Shown here one piece after another: positions 1,082 to 38,693 of a DNA stretch of 64,000 nt. The position numbers and the translations under genes are program-made. The notes under the pieces were generated by a model. It did not search any database. It was not told the DNA's origin and saw only the letters and a program-made list of their open reading frames with translations. Numbering within the stretch: the first letter of the stretch is position 1; every line of letters starts with the position of its first letter. Source of the stretch: a virus (taxonomy: Duplodnaviria; Caudoviricetes); IMG/VR virus record IMGVR_UViG_3300042291_001013; one strand, given 5' to 3'.

Positions 1082-1530
1082 GCTGTTTTCCTTTGCTTCA
1101 AATATTGTTCCCACTGCACCCACTGATTCCGAACCAGGAAACCCCAATCACGTTGTTTAGGGCCGGGACAGAACAAGGTCCAACAGTCCACGCCTGGATC
1201 AAGTTCCACTCTGTGGTACTGATTGGCTCGTGCCCAACGAAAACTGCCAGCCCCACACCACTTGGCAAGTTCGCCAATCTTGCGCCCTTGTGCATCAAAC
1301 TGCGGTCGCCATTCCCAGTAGCCACCTTTCAAGATCACAGTAAAGAAAGGCCAAGGATGATCATGTACATCATCCGGATCACTCTTGAGAAACTTGTGTA
1401 CAAAGATGTTGAACGGGAATCGTTTCCTATCCTTGAGAAACACATAGTAGCGTTCCAAGTAAGGCTCACCATTCACACGGTCCATGATTATGCGATATCG
1501 ACCCAATCGCTGAAAGAGTTTTTTAAGCAT
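1078..1530 (-). CDS. Cupin-fold protein
   Basis: HKFLKSD-PDDVHDHPWPFFTVILKGGYWE and YHRVEL cupin-like metal motifs. Confidence 0.65.
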   Translation of the reverse strand: MLKKLFQRLGRYRIIMDRVNGEPYLERYYVFLKDRKRFPFNIFVHKFLKSDPDDVHDHPWPFFTVILKGGYWEWRPQFDAQGRKIGELAKWCGAGSFRWARANQYHRVELDPGVDCWTLFCPGPKQRDWGFLVRNQWVQWEQYLKQRKTA

Positions 1531-1536
1531 ACAGTT

Positions 1537-1565
1537 ATTATACAGGAAAAGTTAATAGTGGTCAA
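1537..1565 (-). promoter_or_regulatory. Sigma70 early promoter, leaderless
   Basis: TTGACC-17-TATAAT-6-ATG(1530). Confidence 0.8.
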
Positions 1566-5014: not shown

Positions 5015-5043
5015 ATTATAACAAATTGGGAATATTTGGTCAA
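5015..5043 (-). promoter_or_regulatory. Repeated sigma70 early promoter (copy 1)
   Basis: TTGACC-AAATATTCCCAATTTGT-TATAAT. Confidence 0.9.
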
Positions 5044-5141
5044 CCACGCAACCGTTTCATCAACAACTGATTCAGGGTTGGTTTGAGTCCCAACTTCTTG
5101 CGCAAGAGTTCACCCAGAGTTGGCTTTTTTTGTTTTGGCAT
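5040..5141 (-). CDS. 33-aa basic peptide (MPKQKKPTLGELLRKKLG...)
   Basis: Manual translation; own promoter and SD AAGGA; stop TGA lies inside the next -35 box. Confidence 0.6.
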   Translation of the reverse strand: MPKQKKPTLGELLRKKLGLKPTLNQLLMKRLRG

Positions 5142-5171
5142 CTTTGTTTCCTTTTTTGTTTTCATACTCGT

Positions 5172-5200
5172 ATTATAGCAAATTGGGAATATTTGGTCAA
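5172..5200 (-). promoter_or_regulatory. Repeated sigma70 early promoter (copy 2)
   Basis: TTGACC-AAATATTCCCAATTTGC-TATAAT. Confidence 0.9.
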
Positions 5201-10120: not shown

Positions 10121-10170
10121 TTTAAAGTAGAGAAAGCGGTGTTTTGGCACCGCTTTTATTTATACGCCGT

Positions 10171-10995
10171 TTATCTAAGTGTAATTTGTCCAACTACAGC
10201 ACCGGGCTTTTGAAGGGCCTCGTCCCGACGCCGCTTGTATTCAGCATTGTCCACGTCCAGTAATTTTATGTCACCCTGCGATGTTGGGGCAGATTCTGTG
10301 GGTTTTTCAGGTACCACAACCGGTGTCACCTTGCTTTGCGGGGCCAAACTGCGCTCTAGTGCTTGGTCAGCGTTTTGCTCACGTTTGGCATCGGCCGCTT
10401 CATTCTTGTCCATGTCACGTTCTGCGGCACGACCACGTATGTCGCCTTCACGTTGTAAACGAGACTGATCTCGACGTGTTTGGATTGCATTGGCCGCTCC
10501 CACGGGCAATCGCAACAGCACATAGACCTTGTAGGCTTGGCCATCATGAGTGACTTGACTGTCTACTCGTTGTGCTCCACTAAGCTCGCCGCGAGCATTT
10601 TTGCGTGTGACCTGCTGGTAATTCTCAACCATGGCCTGGCCACGATCAGCTCGGTAGCTGTTGGTCTGTGTGGTAATTCTAGCATACATCTGCTCAACCA
10701 GCTTGCGTTCTGCTGACATACGTGCTTTGTCGTATGCCATTTGCTCATCGCTGGATGTAGCTGTGCCCACTGCAAAGGTCATGTCTGCGGTATCTTCGGG
10801 CATGTTGACAAACCAAGCAGGAGCCTGTGCCACTGTGCGAGCCTGACGCTGGGGCAGGGCGTAGGGATGTGATACCAGTGCCTGTGCCACAGCCACTGGC
10901 TGTGCTGGCAAGGGTGCCGGAGTATCAACTGTTTTGGGATTGCTACTGCATGCCGCCAATGTTGAAACAGCCACAGCCAAAATTGAATATTTCAT
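10171..10995 (-). CDS. LPP20-like lipoprotein
   Basis: Lipobox LAAC; APAWF...AVGTATS...AYDKARMSA. Confidence 0.6.
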   Translation of the reverse strand: MKYSILAVAVSTLAACSSNPKTVDTPAPLPAQPVAVAQALVSHPYALPQRQARTVAQAPAWFVNMPEDTADMTFAVGTATSSDEQMAYDKARMSAERKLVEQMYARITTQTNSYRADRGQAMVENYQQVTRKNARGELSGAQRVDSQVTHDGQAYKVYVLLRLPVGAANAIQTRRDQSRLQREGDIRGRAAERDMDKNEAADAKREQNADQALERSLAPQSKVTPVVVPEKPTESAPTSQGDIKLLDVDNAEYKRRRDEALQKPGAVVGQITLR

Positions 10996-11039
10996 GATTA
11001 CCTCTAGTGAGTTACAATACAAGTAGTTTAACACAGTTG

Positions 11040-11606
11040 TCAAAATTTGTCAACGACTACCCAATCCGTTTTGCGAATCTGGCAAATGATGCCTTGGTAG
11101 TTGTGGATGTCCTGTCCGGTAAAGGAAGGTTCAGTAAACCAACGACATCTAGTGCCGTTGTGCCAGAACTCATTGGGAAAATTTGGATGCGGTCTAAATT
11201 GATGTAGCTGAGCATGCACACCAATTGCTACGTTTCGAGCTGGATTGAAATCGTCACGATCTGTACACACCATGACCCTTTGCGTGGCCACTTGGCTGGG
11301 TCCTGCTTGCTCACGTGCATGACTGTCTGCTCGAGTTTGGGCAATACCACATGCTTCGGCACTGGGACGATCTCCTGGCCAATCATGATAGCCTGAAGCC
11401 ATGTACCATGCACTGCCAATACGTGCTTGAAAGCTGACTTCACAGCGTTGATACCCGGCCAGTCCTGGCGTTGGCACAACATGCTGACGAATGCCCGAAC
11501 GTTCTTGTATTTGCACATTGCTGGCAGTGCTGGTGCGATCAGTCAACACACAGGCCGCTTGTACTGTTACAGGCAGTAATGCCAAAATTACTAGACGTTT
11601 TAACAT
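11040..11606 (-). CDS. Secreted Cys-containing hypothetical protein
   Basis: Signal peptide ending VQA-A. Confidence 0.65.
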   Translation of the reverse strand: MLKRLVILALLPVTVQAACVLTDRTSTASNVQIQERSGIRQHVVPTPGLAGYQRCEVSFQARIGSAWYMASGYHDWPGDRPSAEACGIAQTRADSHAREQAGPSQVATQRVMVCTDRDDFNPARNVAIGVHAQLHQFRPHPNFPNEFWHNGTRCRWFTEPSFTGQDIHNYQGIICQIRKTDWVVVDKF

Positions 11607-11944
11607 TCTGCCAGTTCCCGAAGTAGGTAGTTGATGTATTTGTTGGGATTTCCATGAGCCATGTCATAGTTGACCAAGTAAACTCTAGGGTTGGTCACCA
11701 GTTGGTCGCTACGCCACATCAGTCGCATACGTGCGGCAAACTGTTCTTCTTGAGAGAGTCGTTGTCTTTGCAAGAATTCAATTTGTTCTTGTTTGCGACG
11801 GCAATCAACTTGATAGTAGTTAAGGTCCATGGATGTCATGGGCACTCGTTCAGGCATGGGTTGCGTTGCACAGCCACTAAACAGGCTGACAGTGATAACG
11901 CAGATGCCAAATACGGTAACGAATTTGCGCACGGTAGTCTTCAT
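11600..11944 (-). CDS. Putative lipoprotein
   Basis: Lipobox FSGC. Confidence 0.6.
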   Translation of the reverse strand: MKTTVRKFVTVFGICVITVSLFSGCATQPMPERVPMTSMDLNYYQVDCRRKQEQIEFLQRQRLSQEEQFAARMRLMWRSDQLVTNPRVYLVNYDMAHGNPNKYINYLLRELAEC

Positions 11945-12122
11945 AGGCACGTTCATTTTGCAAGGGTTGACGAGGAACAGCCAGCTGGGTTTGATACCAG
12001 TTTATAATGGCCACGCGGTTGGCGCAGTCAGTGGGCATCACTGCTACTGACGCAGGAACACGTTGGTCGTAAGTGCTACAACCAACAAGTGATAACAGAA
12101 CCATGGCTAGAATTGTTTTCAT
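11877..12122 (-). CDS. Putative lipoprotein
   Basis: Lipobox LVGC. Confidence 0.65.
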   Translation of the reverse strand: MKTILAMVLLSLVGCSTYDQRVPASVAVMPTDCANRVAIINWYQTQLAVPRQPLQNERAYEDYRAQIRYRIWHLRYHCQPV

Positions 12123-12125
12123 TCC

Positions 12126-12317
12126 TTAACATTCTACGTCTATGTGACGTCCTTTGTCCGAGTCCAAACGAACATTTCGTGCAACACGTTCTGCAATGAT
12201 TCTATCAAAGTTGCGTTTCTCAACTACCTTGCGATAGTCTTCTTCACGCCGGTCTTGCAATTGAATCCGTTCCTGCCGATGCATCTGTAAGTTATGATCA
12301 ATTCTAGCAACGTTCAT
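12126..12317 (-). CDS. Hypothetical charged protein
   Basis: ATGA coupling with the 12314-12463 gene. Confidence 0.7.
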   Translation of the reverse strand: MNVARIDHNLQMHRQERIQLQDRREEDYRKVVEKRNFDRIIAERVARNVRLDSDKGRHIDVEC

Positions 12318-12463
12318 TCTTCAACTCGATTCTTGTGCTTGAGCTTGCGCTTAAAAACTGTTTTGGGCTGTTCCACACGACCGCGGAACGGCAGGTCTGA
12401 ATCGAACAGGGCTCGATGTCGACGTTCCTTTACAGGTGCTAGTGTGAAATGTATCGGCTTCAT
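12314..12463 (-). CDS. ArfA-like (alternative ribosome-rescue factor A-like) 49-aa peptide
   Basis: Manual translation: ...RALFDSDLPFRGRVEQPKTVFKRKLKHKNRVEE vs E. coli ArfA [31 protein letters not shown]. Confidence 0.55.
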   Translation of the reverse strand: MKPIHFTLAPVKERRHRALFDSDLPFRGRVEQPKTVFKRKLKHKNRVEE

Positions 12464-12472
12464 AGTAGTGTA

Positions 12473-12501
12473 ATTATAGCAAAACAAGATTTATTGGTCA
12501 A
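12473..12501 (-). promoter_or_regulatory. Sigma70 early promoter
   Basis: TTGACC-17-TATAAT, 9 nt before ATG 12463. Confidence 0.85.
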
Positions 12502-12746: not shown

Positions 12747-13010
12747 TCAACCAAATTCGTACATGTACTGGGCAACCCTTGGATCCATCTTGATCAGATC
12801 TTTTGCCGCGGCAGTCAATGCACGATAACGAGCTTGTACTTGACTACGGGGCAGTTCGCCATCGCAGGTTAAATTTTCAGGACTCAATGCAGAATCAATC
12901 ATTTGGGCCACTTGCTTGCGGCCTTCAAAAGTGTCAACTTCATATTGACGACTTTTAAAAATTGCATTGTACTGATTTTCACGATCAATATAGGCTTGTA
13001 GTGCTTTCAT
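12747..13010 (-). CDS. Hypothetical early protein
   Basis: SD CAGGAG behind a promoter cassette. Confidence 0.8.
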   Translation of the reverse strand: MKALQAYIDRENQYNAIFKSRQYEVDTFEGRKQVAQMIDSALSPENLTCDGELPRSQVQARYRALTAAAKDLIKMDPRVAQYMYEFG

Positions 13011-13040: not shown

Positions 13041-13069
13041 ATTATAGCAAATTGGGAATTTTTGGTCAA
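13041..13069 (-). promoter_or_regulatory. Repeated sigma70 early promoter (copy 3)
   Basis: TTGACC-AAAAATTCCCAATTTGC-TATAAT. Confidence 0.9.
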
Positions 13070-15232: not shown

Positions 15233-16235
15233 AAAGTTGTTCACTTGCCAAGTTTTTGCCTTTGGCTTCGACTTGTATATCAAACTGATCACGAAAGCCC
15301 AAGACCCATGAATTCACAGCTGAATTCCAACAGAAGTCACTGTGGGCCCGGAGCTTCTGCTTCTTATAACCTCTAGCAAGAAGTTCAGCAAGGTCTGGTC
15401 GAACGTTTCGATCATGGTCGACCAAAACGTCCTCGCGACTAGTACTAAAATGCATTGCAGGACGAACACCGCGCCAGCTGTCAATAACCCGACTTGTACG
15501 AACGTCCTGCGGTTCGATGTATTCGCCTGTGTTGATCCAGTGGTGGTGTACATCCAACACAAGAGCCACATGCTGAGCCACAGCCAAAGTAGAGTCCAAT
15601 CCATTTGTCATCTCGTCATTCTCGATGGTCATCAAGTTCCTGGCCTCTGGAGTGAGGCGACCCAAGGTCTTTAGGAATTTAGCGGCACCACCTTTGCCAC
15701 TTAAATGTACATTTATCTTGAATCCGTGATCATGCCAACTTTTACCGTAACCCATCCACCGAGCCATGTCTGCGTGGTACTCGAATTCCAGTATTGATCG
15801 TTCAACAATTTCGTCCGACTCACTAGCCAGTACGCAGAATTGCCCAGGGTGAAAAGAGAGCCGCACACCAAGATCTCGAGCACGAGCACCGATCGGATCA
15901 AAGATCTTGGCACAGTGATCTTGAACATCCTGCTGTTGCCAAAACGGAATCCAATCTTCATGTGTGTATCCTTGTAGCATTTCTGAGCCTAGCCGCACCA
16001 TGCGTCGACCTTCGGGCAGGGTGGCCACACGCTCTATCATGAGCAGGGCCGCACGAGCATTGTGGTTCATGATGTCCCACTGACGCTGTTCCGCTTCGCT
16101 TTTGTGTTCGCGAAGCCACCTCATAGTAGTTGATCTGCCGTTTAGGTCACGGTCCTTTGCATTGACTTTCATGCCCCCACATTCATTAGGGTCATTGAGC
16201 CACTTGCAACAAAAGCCAATTCTAGGTGTAGTCAT
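15213..16235 (-). CDS. uvsE: UV-damage endonuclease
   Basis: RIGFCCK, VRLGS, RLSFHPGQF, IEND, LDVHH, RAHSD, VEAKGK. Confidence 0.93.
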   Translation of the reverse strand: MTTPRIGFCCKWLNDPNECGGMKVNAKDRDLNGRSTTMRWLREHKSEAEQRQWDIMNHNARAALLMIERVATLPEGRRMVRLGSEMLQGYTHEDWIPFWQQQDVQDHCAKIFDPIGARARDLGVRLSFHPGQFCVLASESDEIVERSILEFEYHADMARWMGYGKSWHDHGFKINVHLSGKGGAAKFLKTLGRLTPEARNLMTIENDEMTNGLDSTLAVAQHVALVLDVHHHWINTGEYIEPQDVRTSRVIDSWRGVRPAMHFSTSREDVLVDHDRNVRPDLAELLARGYKKQKLRAHSDFCWNSAVNSWVLGFRDQFDIQVEAKGKNLASEQLYEQYIS

Positions 16236-16241
16236 GTGTTG

Positions 16242-16270
16242 ATTATACAGCAATTTCCATTAATTGTCAA
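16242..16270 (-). promoter_or_regulatory. Consensus sigma70 promoter, leaderless uvsE
   Basis: TTGACA-17-TATAAT-6-ATG. Confidence 0.88.
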
Positions 16271-20494: not shown

Positions 20495-22543
20495 ATGTTG
20501 AAAAAAATAGCATTAAGTCCTTGGACGGCCTTGTTAACATTGGCACTTGTTTTAAGTATAAGAATTGCTGATCCTGTCTTTGTAGAAAGTGTAAGACTGC
20601 GCTACTTTGACACGCTGATTACTGACCGTGCTGTCACTGTGAGTGAACAAATTCACGTGGTCAACATTGACGATCGCGCCATTGCTGAACGTGGACAATT
20701 TCCCTTTCCTAGAAGTCAGTATGCTGCCATAATCAAAGCCCTTGATGATCGCAATGCTGGTGTGATTGTGTTTAACATATTCATGCCTGATGCGGATCGT
20801 TTTGGGCAAGACTCTGCCCTGGCTCGGCAACTCAAACAGAGTACAGTGGTGTTGCCACACATGGCCACCAACGAAGACGCTGTGCCCAAGTACCCACCCT
20901 ACAGACCCGGAGTTTCTGTAATAGGCTCTGGCTTGCCGGGCATAGCGTATCAAAGTATTCAACCCAACGTGAGGTTACTAAATGAAACAGCAAGCGGTAT
21001 TGGTATTGTTAACACTTTGCCTGAAATCGACGGCGTTGTACGCCGAGTCCCCCAAGTCATCACAGTTGGAGAACAAGTCTATCCCTCCATCAGTCTTGAA
21101 ACGCTTAGAGTTGCTGCCGGAGATCCCAGCTTCCAGGTCCGAGTCAATGACGGAAGCGTTGAAGCAGTTAGAATTCCACAGTTTGGAAAAATTCCAACAG
21201 ACAATCTCGGTAGAATCTGGGTGGATTGGTCATCCCAGCCGCAAGAACATTCCTTGGCTGATTTGCCAAAGGACTTCCAAGGTGGAATTGTCATTGTTGG
21301 ACTCACCGCTCGCGGGCTCAACAACCCCGTCGCAACTGCAAGAGGAGAAGTCTATCCGCACCATTTGCAAGCCAGCGTACTAGCCACTGTGGCTGCAGGC
21401 ACAAATATTGTGCGTCCAGACTACGCAGACGGAGTTGAAATACTTGCTATTTTAGCCGCAGGTGTGTTATTATTAATTTTTACAAGGTGGGTTTATGTTG
21501 GACTGGCATCGTTGGTTGGAATATGCGCTGTACTTGCGTATGGCAGTTACTTTAGTTTTGTCAATTACCTTTGGCTATTTGACGTTACCCTCCCAGTCGC
21601 AGGCATCGTCCTCGTCGGGCTACACGCCTACGGAGTCAAGTTTGTCTCAGAGTTCCTCCAAAAACAAGCAATCAAAAAACAATTCGCAGGCTACTGTTCC
21701 AAGGAAGTGGTAGAGCTGTTGCAAAAAGATCCTGACTTGATCAAGCGCGGTGTGCGCAAAGACGTATCAGTTATGTTCAGTGACCTACGTGGATTTACTC
21801 CCATTGGTGAACACTACGGCGATGACGTAGCAGGACTTGGCCGATACATGAACGGCTACATGGACAGCATCAGTCAGCCCATGTTGGACAACAAGGGCAT
21901 GATCATCAAATATGTGGGTGATGCATCAATGCACATACATGGTGCTCCTATTGAAGACTTAAATCACGCACGAACAATCGTTGCTGTTGGCTTAGAAATG
22001 CTGGATGCTGTAGACGAATATACCAAGCTGATGGAAGCACAAGGCTTACCACCAGCCGCAATGGGGTGGGGTTGTAACACAGGCATTGGCTTTATTGGTG
22101 AGATGGGGTCAACAGAACGACACAGCTATGACATCTTGGGTGACATGGTTTCAACTGCGGCACGACTAGAAGCACGTTGCAAGGCCTATGGCGTGTTGGC
22201 CATTGTTGGTGCCGAAACTTACAATCGTACTCGAGATGACTTCTTCTATTTGTTGCTAGATAACTTACAACCCAAAGGCAAAACAGTAGCAGACTTGATC
22301 TACACAGTACTACGCACACGTGGTGCGGATTATACTAAAGAACTTGAAACCCACACCAAGATGCATGCCTTGTACAAAGAAAAACAATTTGATGCGGCAG
22401 TTATCTTATGCGAAGAATTGCACGGCAAGTTTGGCGGGCAAATGGACAAGTACTACAAGATGTGGATTGAACGCTGTGGGTTCATGAAGCAACAAGACTT
22501 ACCTGACAACTGGAACGGTGAGTTTGTTGCGCACGAAAAGTAA
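20495..22543 (+). CDS. CHASE2-domain class III adenylate cyclase
   Basis: N-terminal TM, CHASE2 (LRYFD, VVNID, FPFPR, DGVVRR), 3 TM, MFSDLRGFT, KYVGD, YDILGD..STAARLE. Confidence 0.93.
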   Translation: MLKKIALSPWTALLTLALVLSIRIADPVFVESVRLRYFDTLITDRAVTVSEQIHVVNIDDRAIAERGQFPFPRSQYAAIIKALDDRNAGVIVFNIFMPDADRFGQDSALARQLKQSTVVLPHMATNEDAVPKYPPYRPGVSVIGSGLPGIAYQSIQPNVRLLNETASGIGIVNTLPEIDGVVRRVPQVITVGEQVYPSISLETLRVAAGDPSFQVRVNDGSVEAVRIPQFGKIPTDNLGRIWVDWSSQPQEHSLADLPKDFQGGIVIVGLTARGLNNPVATARGEVYPHHLQASVLATVAAGTNIVRPDYADGVEILAILAAGVLLLIFTRWVYVGLASLVGICAVLAYGSYFSFVNYLWLFDVTLPVAGIVLVGLHAYGVKFVSEFLQKQAIKKQFAGYCSKEVVELLQKDPDLIKRGVRKDVSVMFSDLRGFTPIGEHYGDDVAGLGRYMNGYMDSISQPMLDNKGMIIKYVGDASMHIHGAPIEDLNHARTIVAVGLEMLDAVDEYTKLMEAQGLPPAAMGWGCNTGIGFIGEMGSTERHSYDILGDMVSTAARLEARCKAYGVLAIVGAETYNRTRDDFFYLLLDNLQPKGKTVADLIYTVLRTRGADYTKELETHTKMHALYKEKQFDAAVILCEELHGKFGGQMDKYYKMWIERCGFMKQQDLPDNWNGEFVAHEK

Positions 22544-29380: not shown

Positions 29381-29605
29381 TCAATACAGTTTTCGGGGTA
29401 GACTCTGTGCGTCCAATTTCTTTTGCCAGCGATTCTTTGCGGCTGACTTTTTGCGTTTGCGCTCGGTTGTGGGTTTTTCGTAAAATTCTTTGGCACGGAC
29501 GTCATCCAGTATGCCTGAGGCCTGTATCTTTTTCTTGAATTTACGCAGTGCTTTGTCTACATTGCCATCTTGTACCAGTACGGATCTACCTCTTAATTTA
29601 ACCAT
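29381..29605 (-). CDS. rpsU: 30S ribosomal protein bS21
   Basis: [15 protein letters not shown]...[16 protein letters not shown]. Confidence 0.92.
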
Positions 29606-38317: not shown

Positions 38318-38346
38318 ATTATAGCAGTTTGGGAATTATTGGTCAA
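38318..38346 (-). promoter_or_regulatory. Repeated sigma70 early promoter (copy 4)
   Basis: TTGACC-AATAATTCCCAAACTGC-TATAAT. Confidence 0.9.
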
Positions 38347-38355
38347 CCGCGTGGA

Positions 38356-38634
38356 TCACATGCTCCAGTAAGTTTCGCTAGCCGGGTTGCAACACCAAGG
38401 AGTGTCAGCATCAATTTCCACAGGCTTGCCGCTCATCAAATTCTTTACAGTGATCCGGGGTGCAGTATAGGTTGCACGAGCCACAATGTTCAGTTGACTT
38501 TCGTTCCAACCTGCTTTGTTGCAAAGACGGGTACGAGTTGCCTTAGCGGCACCAAAAGTTTTGTATGCACGGGTTTTATTGGGACCGTCTGTAACAATAA
38601 GACCTGTACCTTTTGCGACAATTACGTAACTCAT
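38356..38634 (-). CDS. Hypothetical early protein
   Basis: Start MSYVIV with leader AAACAGCAAACAGGAGCC. Confidence 0.75.
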   Translation of the reverse strand: MSYVIVAKGTGLIVTDGPNKTRAYKTFGAAKATRTRLCNKAGWNESQLNIVARATYTAPRITVKNLMSGKPVEIDADTPWCCNPASETYWSM

Positions 38635-38664
38635 TTGTGGCTCCTGTTTGCTGTTTATGTGTAT

Positions 38665-38693
38665 ATTATAGCATTTTGGGATATTTTGGTCAA
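38665..38693 (-). promoter_or_regulatory. Repeated sigma70 early promoter (copy 5)
   Basis: TTGACC-AAAATATCCCAAAATGC-TATAAT. Confidence 0.9.

What the first reader, a model, noticed from the sequence alone, without database searches (positions are those of the whole stretch)
12314..12463. Unannotated ArfA-like peptide lacking the KGKGS motif
Seen: a 49-aa ORF below the track cut-off, first gene behind a strong early promoter. It aligns with E. coli ArfA (ALFDSDLPFRGRVEQPK--TVFKRKLKHKNR vs [31 protein letters not shown]), keeping the N-terminal core and basic tail but not KGKGS. Known: ArfA's basic tail enters the empty mRNA channel and recruits RF2 to non-stop ribosomes; host ArfA is made from non-stop mRNA and held low by tmRNA. 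Inference: this short, stop-terminated version escapes tmRNA control and either rescues ribosomes stalled on cleaved host mRNA (for example against RNase toxins) or acts as an inhibitor.
Basis: partly seen in the sequence, partly recalled or inferred. Interest (0 to 1): 0.65.

Follow-up and report, generated by a model that had tools for sequence, protein, structure and literature searches.

The report
Leaderless phage ArfA-like ribosome-rescue peptide
A real, strongly conserved 49-residue early gene of an uncultured giant lake phage is a divergent relative of the bacterial ribosome-rescue factor ArfA, made without ArfA's usual tmRNA gating, and it probably frees stalled host ribosomes during infection, though no experiment has tested this.

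Summary
The ORF at 12314-12463 (minus strand) is a real gene. Its dN/dS is 0.09-0.21. It has 64 close metagenomic clusters, 57 viral loci and 268 clusters at 50% identity.

It is homologous to ArfA, but only at profile level:
- PF03889 and BLASTP against E. coli ArfA find nothing.
- A family profile hits only ArfA chains in the PDB (E 0.005).
- hhalign gives 88.5% probability (score 33 against at most 17 in 100 shuffles).
- A phage protein that passes PF03889 is 48% identical to it.

It keeps Ala18, Leu19, the Leu/Phe patch and the KH tail. The KGKGS loop is 3 residues shorter.

It has its own stop codon and no hairpin. In 35 of 44 distinct loci a near-consensus sigma-70 promoter ends 6-9 nt before the ATG, which gives a leaderless mRNA.

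Both near-complete relatives (343-349 kb) carry a tmRNA, IF-1 and bS21, but no SmpB or release factor. The likely host family is Comamonadaceae-type, judged from PstS. No ArfA was found in 101 of its genomes, and its RF2 keeps the ArfA-contact residues.

The most likely function is constitutive RF2-dependent rescue; an inhibitor role is not excluded. This scan has already reported DUF7230-type phage ArfA-like peptides on other DNA, and JGI already names close relatives ArfA.

The parts
12473..12501 (-). Sigma-70-type early promoter: -35 TTGACC (12501-12496), 17-nt spacer, TG-extended -10 TATAAT (12478-12473). The -10 box ends 9 nt before the ATG, so the transcript has a 0-3-nt leader and no Shine-Dalgarno sequence.
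   Evidence: 11 of 12 consensus matches; the same layout in 35 of 44 distinct loci; other promoters of this consensus in the window mostly have a ~30-nt leader with AGGAGCC.
12314..12463 (-). 49-aa ArfA-like peptide gene (stop codon TGA at 12314-12316), pI 11, 14 Lys+Arg. Ala18-Leu19, Leu24-Pro25-Phe26, Arg27/Arg29/Val30/Glu31 and Lys42-His43-x-Asn45-Arg46 align with ArfA Ala18-Leu19, Pro23-Leu24-Phe25, Arg26/Arg28/Val29/Glu30 and Lys44-His45-x-Asn47-Arg48.
12126..12317 (-). 63-aa charged ORF whose ATG overlaps the ArfA-like stop codon (ATGA). It is absent from all relatives, so it sits in a variable slot and may or may not be a gene.
   Evidence: (no tblastn match in any of 57 loci).
11877..12122 (-). 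81-aa predicted lipoprotein (lipobox LVGC). In close relatives it follows the ArfA-like gene directly, with an ATGA overlap.
11600..11956 (-). 118-aa predicted lipoprotein (lipobox FSGC), syntenic in relatives.
11040..11606 (-). 188-aa secreted or lipoprotein-like ORF, syntenic in relatives.
10171..11043 (-). 290-aa ORF that contains a lipoprotein signal (LAAC) and is syntenic in relatives. It is the last gene of the apparent operon.
10133..10156 (-). Intrinsic-terminator-like hairpin that closes the apparent operon started at the 12501 promoter.

Best explanation
The gene encodes a phage-borne, divergent ArfA-type ribosome-rescue peptide.

Shown here: it is a real gene under purifying selection. 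It is homologous to ArfA at profile level. It retains the residues that in E. coli ArfA form the RF2-binding hydrophobic patch and the core alanine, and it keeps the basic tail with the KH motif out to the minimal active length. It has its own stop codon and no hairpin. It is transcribed from a near-consensus host-type promoter as an essentially leaderless mRNA.

Inferred: host RNA polymerase makes the peptide immediately after infection, without the tmRNA gating that bacteria impose on arfA. Its tail enters the empty mRNA channel of ribosomes stalled at the 3' ends of truncated messages. Its N-terminal part recruits and opens host RF2, which releases the peptide and returns the ribosome to the pool for phage translation. 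It would act beside the tmRNA that close relatives of the phage encode. The probable host family was not found to have ArfA of its own.
For: Real gene: dN/dS 0.09-0.21; 64 clusters; 57 viral loci; 268 clusters at 50% identity.

Homology:
- Profiles A1 and A2 hit only the six ArfA sequences among 177,635 PDB sequences, E 0.005-0.01.
- hhalign against enterobacterial ArfA gives 88.5% probability, E 2.7e-6, score 33.2. Reversed alignments score 7-8, and 100 column shuffles reach at most 16.9.
- Phage J2-1 ArfA (PF03889, E 1e-10) is 48% identical to the window peptide over 40 aa.
- The language-model neighbours include ArfA and DUF7230 clusters.

Functional residues, from PMC5378476 and PMC8012679: Ala18, Leu19/Leu24/Phe25, the KH motif, and activity retained down to Asn47. 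All have counterparts here, and they are invariant or nearly so in the close family.

No gating: own stop codon, folding z-score -0.41, no inverted repeats.

Context: both near-complete relatives encode a tmRNA, tRNAs, IF-1 and bS21 but no SmpB and no release factor, so host RF2 must be used.

Host: RF2 of the candidate host genera keeps Val198, Phe217 and Trp319.
Against: There is no biochemical evidence for any member of this family. PF03889 and DUF7230 do not reach their cut-offs. The loop between the A-site segment and the tail is 3 residues shorter than in ArfA, which could alter how the tail sits in the mRNA tunnel. The segment before Ala18 is strongly basic (RRHR) instead of ArfA's DNAIE, so the N-terminal minidomain may fold differently. 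ArfA/RF2 pairs are known to be species-specific (PMC8012679). The host is inferred only from PstS similarity.
Confidence: 0.6

Rival explanations
1. Ribosome-binding inhibitor or decoy. The peptide plugs the empty mRNA channel, on non-stop complexes or on vacant 30S/70S particles, but does not activate RF2. That would block the host's tmRNA-SmpB or ArfB, or host translation initiation, in the phage's favour.
For: The best conserved part across the wide family is the channel-binding tail (R39, K42, H43 invariant). Ala18 becomes Val or Met and Leu24 becomes Thr or Ser in distant members. The loop is shortened and the RRHR segment differs from ArfA. Expression is constitutive and early.
Against: The close family keeps Ala18, Leu19, Leu24 and Phe26 invariant, the very residues that contact RF2 or whose mutation kills RF2 activation. 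The phage lineage invests in rescue with its own tmRNA, and blocking rescue would work against that. A plug for vacant ribosomes would also harm phage translation.
Confidence: 0.17
2. A basic nucleic-acid-binding or other small early protein whose likeness to ArfA is convergent: a short, Lys/Arg-rich sequence with no role in ribosome rescue.
For: There is no pairwise similarity to E. coli ArfA. There is no Pfam hit. The protein is short and has pI 11. ArfA, BrfA and ArfT show that KH-type tails can arise independently (PMC8012679).
Against: The profile match is specific: only ArfA among 177,635 PDB sequences. It survives reversal and shuffling controls that preserve composition. It covers the non-basic ALF..LPFR.RVE block as well as the tail. 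An intermediate sequence passes PF03889.
Confidence: 0.1
3. A regulatory upstream ORF or leader peptide that only controls translation of the lipoprotein genes behind it.
For: It is the first cistron. Its stop codon overlaps the next start (ATGA), both in the window and in close relatives.
Against: The amino-acid sequence is under purifying selection. The family also occurs in many unrelated viral contigs that lack these lipoprotein genes.
Confidence: 0.03

Closest known systems
ArfA (YhdL; Pfam PF03889; PDB 5MDV, 5U4I, 5H5U, 5MGP), the RF2-dependent alternative ribosome-rescue factor of some beta- and gammaproteobacteria
   Same: The active form is of similar size (49 aa against about 55). 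Ala18-Leu19 sit at the same residue numbers. The Leu/Pro/Phe-Arg-x-Arg-Val-Glu block, the Tyr/Phe-x-Arg and the Lys-His-x-Asn-Arg tail are shared. The profile-profile match covers 37 columns.
   Different: It is below the PF03889 cut-off. The KKGKGS loop is 3 residues shorter. It has RRHR instead of DNAIE before Ala18. It has no hydrophobic regulatory tail. It has its own stop codon and no RNase III or terminator hairpin, so tmRNA cannot gate it. Its mRNA is leaderless. It was found only in viral or metagenomic DNA.
Pfam DUF7230 (PF23876) and PHROG 2701/6310: uncharacterised short basic proteins, mostly from phages
   Same: This is the nearest catalogued family. 16 of 36 close relatives and 45 of the 150 best library hits match it. 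The window peptide hits phrog_2701 at E 0.011. J2-1 ArfA matches both DUF7230 and ArfA.
   Different: The window peptide gives no DUF7230 hit at E<=1. The copies in related jumbo phages score 17-20 bits against a cut-off of 27. DUF7230 has no assigned function.
ArfA-like genes annotated in cultured phages: Pseudoalteromonas phage J2-1 (ATN93434), Citromicrobium phage RXM g10, pelagiphage HTVC027P gp30. Unannotated copies occur in Pseudomonas phage pf16 and Ralstonia jumbo phage RsoM2USA.
   Same: They are phage-borne, short and stop-terminated. J2-1 has the same short loop and is 48% identical. HTVC027P gp30 is transcribed early (PMC12753301). RXM and HTVC027P infect alphaproteobacteria, a group outside the reported range of ArfA (distribution from PMC8012679).
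   Different: pf16, RsoM2USA and RXM keep a KGKGS- or KGRGS-type loop. None has been tested functionally. The leaderless promoter layout has not been described for any of them in the papers I could search.
BrfA (Bacillus) and ArfT (Francisella): unrelated small RF-dependent rescue factors
   Same: Each is a small basic peptide with a tail in the mRNA channel. BrfA shares the KH motif (PMC8012679).
   Different: Neither has detectable sequence homology to ArfA. BrfA, like ArfA, is made from a non-stop mRNA.

Membership tests
ArfA (PF03889) | Match to the Pfam HMM at or above the gathering score (25.5 bits) | tested here: not met
   No hit at E<=1 for the window peptide. 1 of 36 close relatives hits at E 0.039. 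4 of the 150 best library hits match, best E 1.8e-4. No match in five related jumbo-phage records at E<=10.
ArfA (PF03889) | Detectable homology to bona fide ArfA at profile level | tested here: met
   hmmsearch of the family profile against the PDB returns only ArfA, E 0.005. hhalign gives 88.5% probability, E 2.7e-6. Reversal and shuffle controls reach a score of at most 16.9, against 33.2 for the real pair. J2-1 acts as a bridge.
ArfA (PF03889) | N-terminal hydrophobic patch that binds RF2 (Leu19, Leu24, Phe25) and core Ala18 | tested here: met
   A18, L19, L24 and F26 are invariant in the close family and align to ArfA A18, L19 and P23-L24-F25. The roles of these residues come from PMC5378476. 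In distant members Ala becomes Val or Met and Leu24 becomes Thr or Ser.
ArfA (PF03889) | Basic C-terminal tail with the KH motif, reaching at least the equivalent of Asn47 | tested here: met
   R39, K42 and H43 are invariant. N45-R46 align with ArfA N47-R48. The minimal active length comes from PMC5378476, the KH motif from PMC8012679.
ArfA (PF03889) | KKGKGS-type glycine/lysine loop between the A-site segment and the tail | tested here: not met
   There is a 3-column gap at ArfA K33-G35. This feature is not strictly defining: J2-1 also lacks the loop yet passes PF03889.
ArfA (PF03889) | Expression from a non-stop mRNA (hairpin, RNase III site or terminator inside the ORF), gated by tmRNA | tested here: not met
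   The stop codon is in frame, TGA at 12314-12316. The RNA fold is no better than shuffles, z -0.41. There are no inverted repeats. All 57 relatives end at a stop codon of their own.
ArfA (PF03889) | RF2-dependent, stop-codon-independent peptidyl-tRNA hydrolysis on non-stop ribosomes | not testable with these tools
   This needs biochemistry. Only indirect support exists: RF2 of the candidate host genera keeps V198, F217 and W319.
DUF7230 (PF23876) | Match to the Pfam HMM at or above the gathering score (27 bits) | tested here: not met
   The window peptide gives no hit. The copies in related jumbo phages score 17-20 bits. 16 of 36 close relatives reach E>=3.5e-4.

The most novel reading that the evidence does not exclude
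The conserved leaderless layout is not just fast early expression. It replaces the bacterial tmRNA gate with direct product feedback. Leaderless mRNAs are loaded by 70S ribosomes whose mRNA channel is empty, which is the very state the peptide's tail binds. Surplus peptide would therefore shut off its own translation, and stalled ribosomes would draw the peptide away and turn translation back on. Together with the phage tmRNA, this would give a self-regulating, two-route rescue system that the phage brings into hosts lacking ArfA.
Probability: 0.12. Interest if true: 0.7.

Novelty: new variant of a known kind. Interest (0 to 1): 0.45.

Why it matters
ArfA is described as a back-up factor of a subset of beta- and gammaproteobacteria, held silent by tmRNA. 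This finding shows a large, phage-only branch of the same family (268 clusters at 50% identity) with the opposite logic: it is always on, made early and translated from a leaderless mRNA. It is carried by giant phages whose close relatives also encode a tmRNA and that probably infect bacteria with no ArfA of their own.

If the peptide is active, ribosome rescue would count as a resource that phages actively supply. It would assign a function to part of DUF7230 and PHROG 2701. It would also offer a natural minimal ArfA, with a shorter loop and no regulatory tail, for structural work on RF2 activation.

Phage ArfA-like genes are already annotated in several genomes, and this scan has seen them before. 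The new points are the regulatory design and the host context, not the existence of the gene.

Tried and rejected
- Direct family searches found nothing for the window peptide: Pfam and NCBIfam.
- BLASTP against E. coli ArfA found nothing at E<=100.
- Megablast of the 3-kb neighbourhood against 50,697 phage records found no match.
- The word-indexed search with J2-1 ArfA returned only J2-1 itself.
- The family was not found in 185,579 prokaryote species genomes by pattern scan. Alignment A2 was too diverse for that tool.
- A2 found nothing in 101 genomes of the candidate host family.
- I looked for an arfA-like hairpin, RNase III site or intragenic terminator and found none.
- Rfam and ARAGORN found no RNA gene in the window.
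- Rfam tmRNA hits in the relatives were below the cut-off, short and clustered in the tRNA arrays, so probably tRNA-like. ARAGORN then found permuted tmRNAs in both near-complete relatives, but none in the tRNA regions of three incomplete ones.
- The alternative 57-aa TTG start at 12487 was rejected, because it lies inside the promoter spacer and the MKPI start is conserved.
- The 63-aa downstream ORF was rejected as a conserved partner, because it is absent from all relatives.
- No structure was predicted. ArfA is ordered only on the ribosome, so a monomer model would say little.
A locus handle was not accepted as a search centre.

Full report
**The object.** The minus strand at 12314-12463 carries a 49-codon ORF, MKPIHF...KHKNRVEE, with an ATG start and a TGA stop. 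The peptide has pI 11 and 14 Lys+Arg. A sigma-70-type promoter, TTGACC-17 nt-TATAAT with a TG extension (11 of 12 matches), lies at 12501-12473. Its -10 box ends 9 nt before the ATG, and there is no Shine-Dalgarno sequence. The stop codon overlaps the ATG of a 63-aa ORF (ATGA). Four lipoprotein-like or secreted-protein ORFs follow, and a terminator-like hairpin sits at 10156-10133.

**Is it a gene?** Yes.
- A word-indexed search of 5.8 billion proteins found 64 clusters of 49-50-aa homologues at 57-94% identity. All have the same MKPI start, and JGI names many of them 'stalled ribosome alternative rescue factor ArfA'.
- IMG/VR holds 57 loci, from close copies on contigs of 250-350 kb to copies with 37-59% identity on smaller viral contigs.
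- A profile of 41 of these (A2) finds 268 clusters at 50% identity in 1.84 billion proteins.
- Pairwise dN/dS against ten relatives is 0.09-0.21, with near-saturated synonymous change.

**Is it ArfA-like?**
- Direct tests fail. There is no PF03889 or NCBIfam hit. BLASTP against E. coli ArfA gives nothing at E<=100. PF03889 finds nothing in five related jumbo-phage records.
- Profile tests succeed. Profiles A1 and A2, searched against all 177,635 distinct PDB sequences, return only the six ArfA sequences, E 0.005-0.01.
- hhalign against 19 enterobacterial ArfAs gives 88.5% probability, E 2.7e-6, over 37 columns. A profile of the 150 best library hits gives 87.9%.
- With one alignment reversed the score drops from 33.2 to 7-8. 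In 100 column shuffles it never exceeds 16.9. Basic composition therefore does not explain the match.
- The best phage hit by tblastn is the 51-aa ArfA of Pseudoalteromonas phage J2-1. It is 48% identical over 40 aa. It passes PF03889 (E 1e-10) and also matches DUF7230.
- Of the 150 best library hits, 45 match DUF7230 and 4 match ArfA. The window peptide hits phrog_2701 at E 0.011. Language-model neighbours include an ArfA cluster and a DUF7230 cluster.
- I conclude that this is a divergent branch of the ArfA/DUF7230 superfamily that sits below both Pfam cut-offs.

**What is kept and what is changed?** In the hhalign alignment:
- A18-L19 match ArfA A18-L19, at the same residue numbers.
- L24-P25-F26 match P23-L24-F25.
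- R27, R29, V30 and E31 match R26, R28, V29 and E30.
- F37 (Tyr in most relatives) matches Y39, and R39 matches R41.
- K42-H43 match K44-H45, and N45-R46 match N47-R48.

According to the cryo-EM study PMC5378476:
- Leu19, Leu24 and Phe25 bind RF2 at Trp319, Val198 and Phe217.
- Ala18 is the site of the A18T mutation, which permits RF2 binding but blocks peptide release.
- Residues 31-48 lie in the mRNA tunnel.
- Truncation to Asn47 leaves ArfA active, and truncation after Met40 kills it.

The KH motif is shared with BrfA (PMC8012679).

There are three differences from ArfA. One residue is inserted after ALF. The segment before Ala18 is RRHR, with R14 invariant and H16 nearly so, where ArfA has DNAIE. 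The short loop alone does not exclude membership, because J2-1 has it and still passes PF03889.

**Regulation.** Bacterial arfA is made from a non-stop mRNA, through a hairpin that acts as an RNase III site or a terminator, and tmRNA keeps it low (PMC8012679). This gene has its own stop codon, as do all 57 relatives. Its RNA folds no better than shuffled sequence, z -0.41, and it has no inverted repeats.

A new point is the promoter position.
- In 35 of 44 distinct loci, including distant ones in unrelated contexts, a promoter with at least 5 of 6 matches in each hexamer and a 16-18-nt spacer (17 in 34 of the 35) ends 6-9 nt before the ATG, with no Shine-Dalgarno sequence.
- Four loci have a GGAG-type Shine-Dalgarno sequence instead. 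The only GTG start is among them.
- At most 2.6% of other ORFs in the same loci show the leaderless layout, and that count still includes the family copies.
- In the window, promoters of the same consensus mostly carry a ~30-nt leader with AGGAGCC. The UvdE gene and the ORF at 1078-1530 also look leaderless.

The mRNA is therefore effectively leaderless, and this is a trait of the gene family. No start site has been mapped, so this remains an inference.

**Genomic and host context.**
- No whole genome is held for the window. It has no close relative among 50,697 phage records.
- The gene lies in a syntenic block shared with relatives: a 90-aa ORF, the ArfA-like gene, a variable slot, four envelope ORFs and a 201-aa ORF. 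The 63-aa ORF occurs only in the window.
- Two relatives are near-complete genomes of 343 and 349 kb. Both encode a permuted tmRNA with the tag ANDSQFALAA and 27 and 21 tRNAs respectively in the regions scanned.
- IF-1 is present in 4 of the 5 related records, including both near-complete ones. bS21 is present in all 5 and lies in the window at 29399-29605.
- None of the five related records has SmpB or a release factor. A rescue peptide would have to use host RF2.
- ARAGORN found no tmRNA in the tRNA regions of three incomplete relatives.
- The window's PstS is 72-78% identical to PstS of Hydrogenophaga, Polaromonas and other Burkholderiaceae. This points to a freshwater Comamonadaceae-type host, but it is only a lead.
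- PF03889 was not found in 101 sampled genomes of that GTDB family, and was found in 2 of 151 genomes of the order.
- Three genomes of the candidate host genera each carry RF1, RF2 and a short ArfB-like ORF. Their RF2 keeps Val198, Phe217 and Trp319.

**Interpretation.** The most likely reading (about 0.6) is a constitutively made, RF2-dependent rescue factor. It would return ribosomes stalled on truncated messages to the pool, acting alongside the tmRNA that close relatives of the phage encode. The main alternative (about 0.17) is an inhibitor that plugs the channel. The invariance of the RF2-contact residues in the close family argues against it, as does the lineage's investment in rescue. 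Convergent similarity (about 0.1) is unlikely given the controls. A pure leader-peptide role (about 0.03) is contradicted by protein-level selection and by the family's presence in unrelated contexts. I found no evidence for a link to RNase toxins.

**What is already known.** ArfA genes are annotated, but untested, in phage J2-1, Citromicrobium phage RXM (PMC8953757) and pelagiphage HTVC027P, where the gene is expressed early (PMC12753301). Unannotated copies exist in Pseudomonas phage pf16 and Ralstonia jumbo phage RsoM2USA. I found no paper on DUF7230, on ArfA in jumbo phages, or on leaderless expression of a rescue factor. Earlier notes of this scan describe DUF7230-type phage ArfA-like peptides on other DNA, and another reader flagged this same stretch. 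The gene class is therefore not new. The stop-terminated, leaderless design, the pairing with a phage tmRNA in close relatives, and the apparent lack of ArfA in the probable host family are the added points.

Noticed in passing
window 29399-29605 (-): A bS21 ribosomal-protein homologue, 75% identical to the PF01165-positive ORF of relative G002. Four of the five related records, including both near-complete genomes, also encode IF-1, which is not in this window.
   Followed up: partly
window 12747-13010 (-), with its own promoter at 13069-13041: An 87-aa ORF of unknown function. It is 72-90% identical in distant viral contigs whose ArfA-like gene is only 40-45% identical (L029, L035-L037, L039, L046, L047), and 45% identical in L057, always within a few kb of the ArfA-like gene. 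There is no Pfam, PHROG, atlas or phage-record match.
   Followed up: partly
window 16233-16270 (-) and 1530-1565 (-): Two more genes look leaderless: the UvdE-like endonuclease (ATG at 16235) and the ORF at 1078-1530. In each, a consensus promoter's -10 box ends 6 nt before the ATG. Leaderless expression may be a recurrent device of this phage.
   Followed up: no
window 5015-5200, 13041-13069, 38318-38693 (-): A repeated early-promoter cassette, TTGACCAA(A/T)A(A/T)TTCCCAA(T/A)(T/A/C)TG(C/T)TATAAT, followed by a conserved ~30-nt leader that ends in AGGAGCC. Five copies lie in the window.
   Followed up: no
window 10171-12122 (-): Four consecutive lipoprotein or secreted-protein ORFs (81, 118, 188 and 290 aa) appear to be co-transcribed with the ArfA-like gene. 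They are conserved in order in related jumbo phages. They may be envelope or superinfection-exclusion proteins; the only hints are weak Cor and Rz-like PHROG matches for the 81-aa ORF.
   Followed up: partly
L060:2534-2656 (+) = Ralstonia phage RsoM2USA MG752970.1, about 111,850-111,970: An unannotated 40-aa ArfA-like ORF with a KKGKGSF loop sits just upstream of a tRNA-like sequence. It lies opposite an annotated 120-aa 'hypothetical protein' (RsoM2USA_176) that is probably spurious.
   Followed up: partly
L067:11049-11527 (G002) and L068:5149-5594 (G003): The phage tmRNAs are of the permuted (two-piece) type, with the tag ANDSQFALAA. No SmpB is encoded, so they must use host SmpB.
   Followed up: partly
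window 20495-22543 (+): A 682-aa ORF with a CHASE2 sensor domain and an adenylate/guanylate cyclase domain, an unusual signalling gene for a phage.
   Followed up: no
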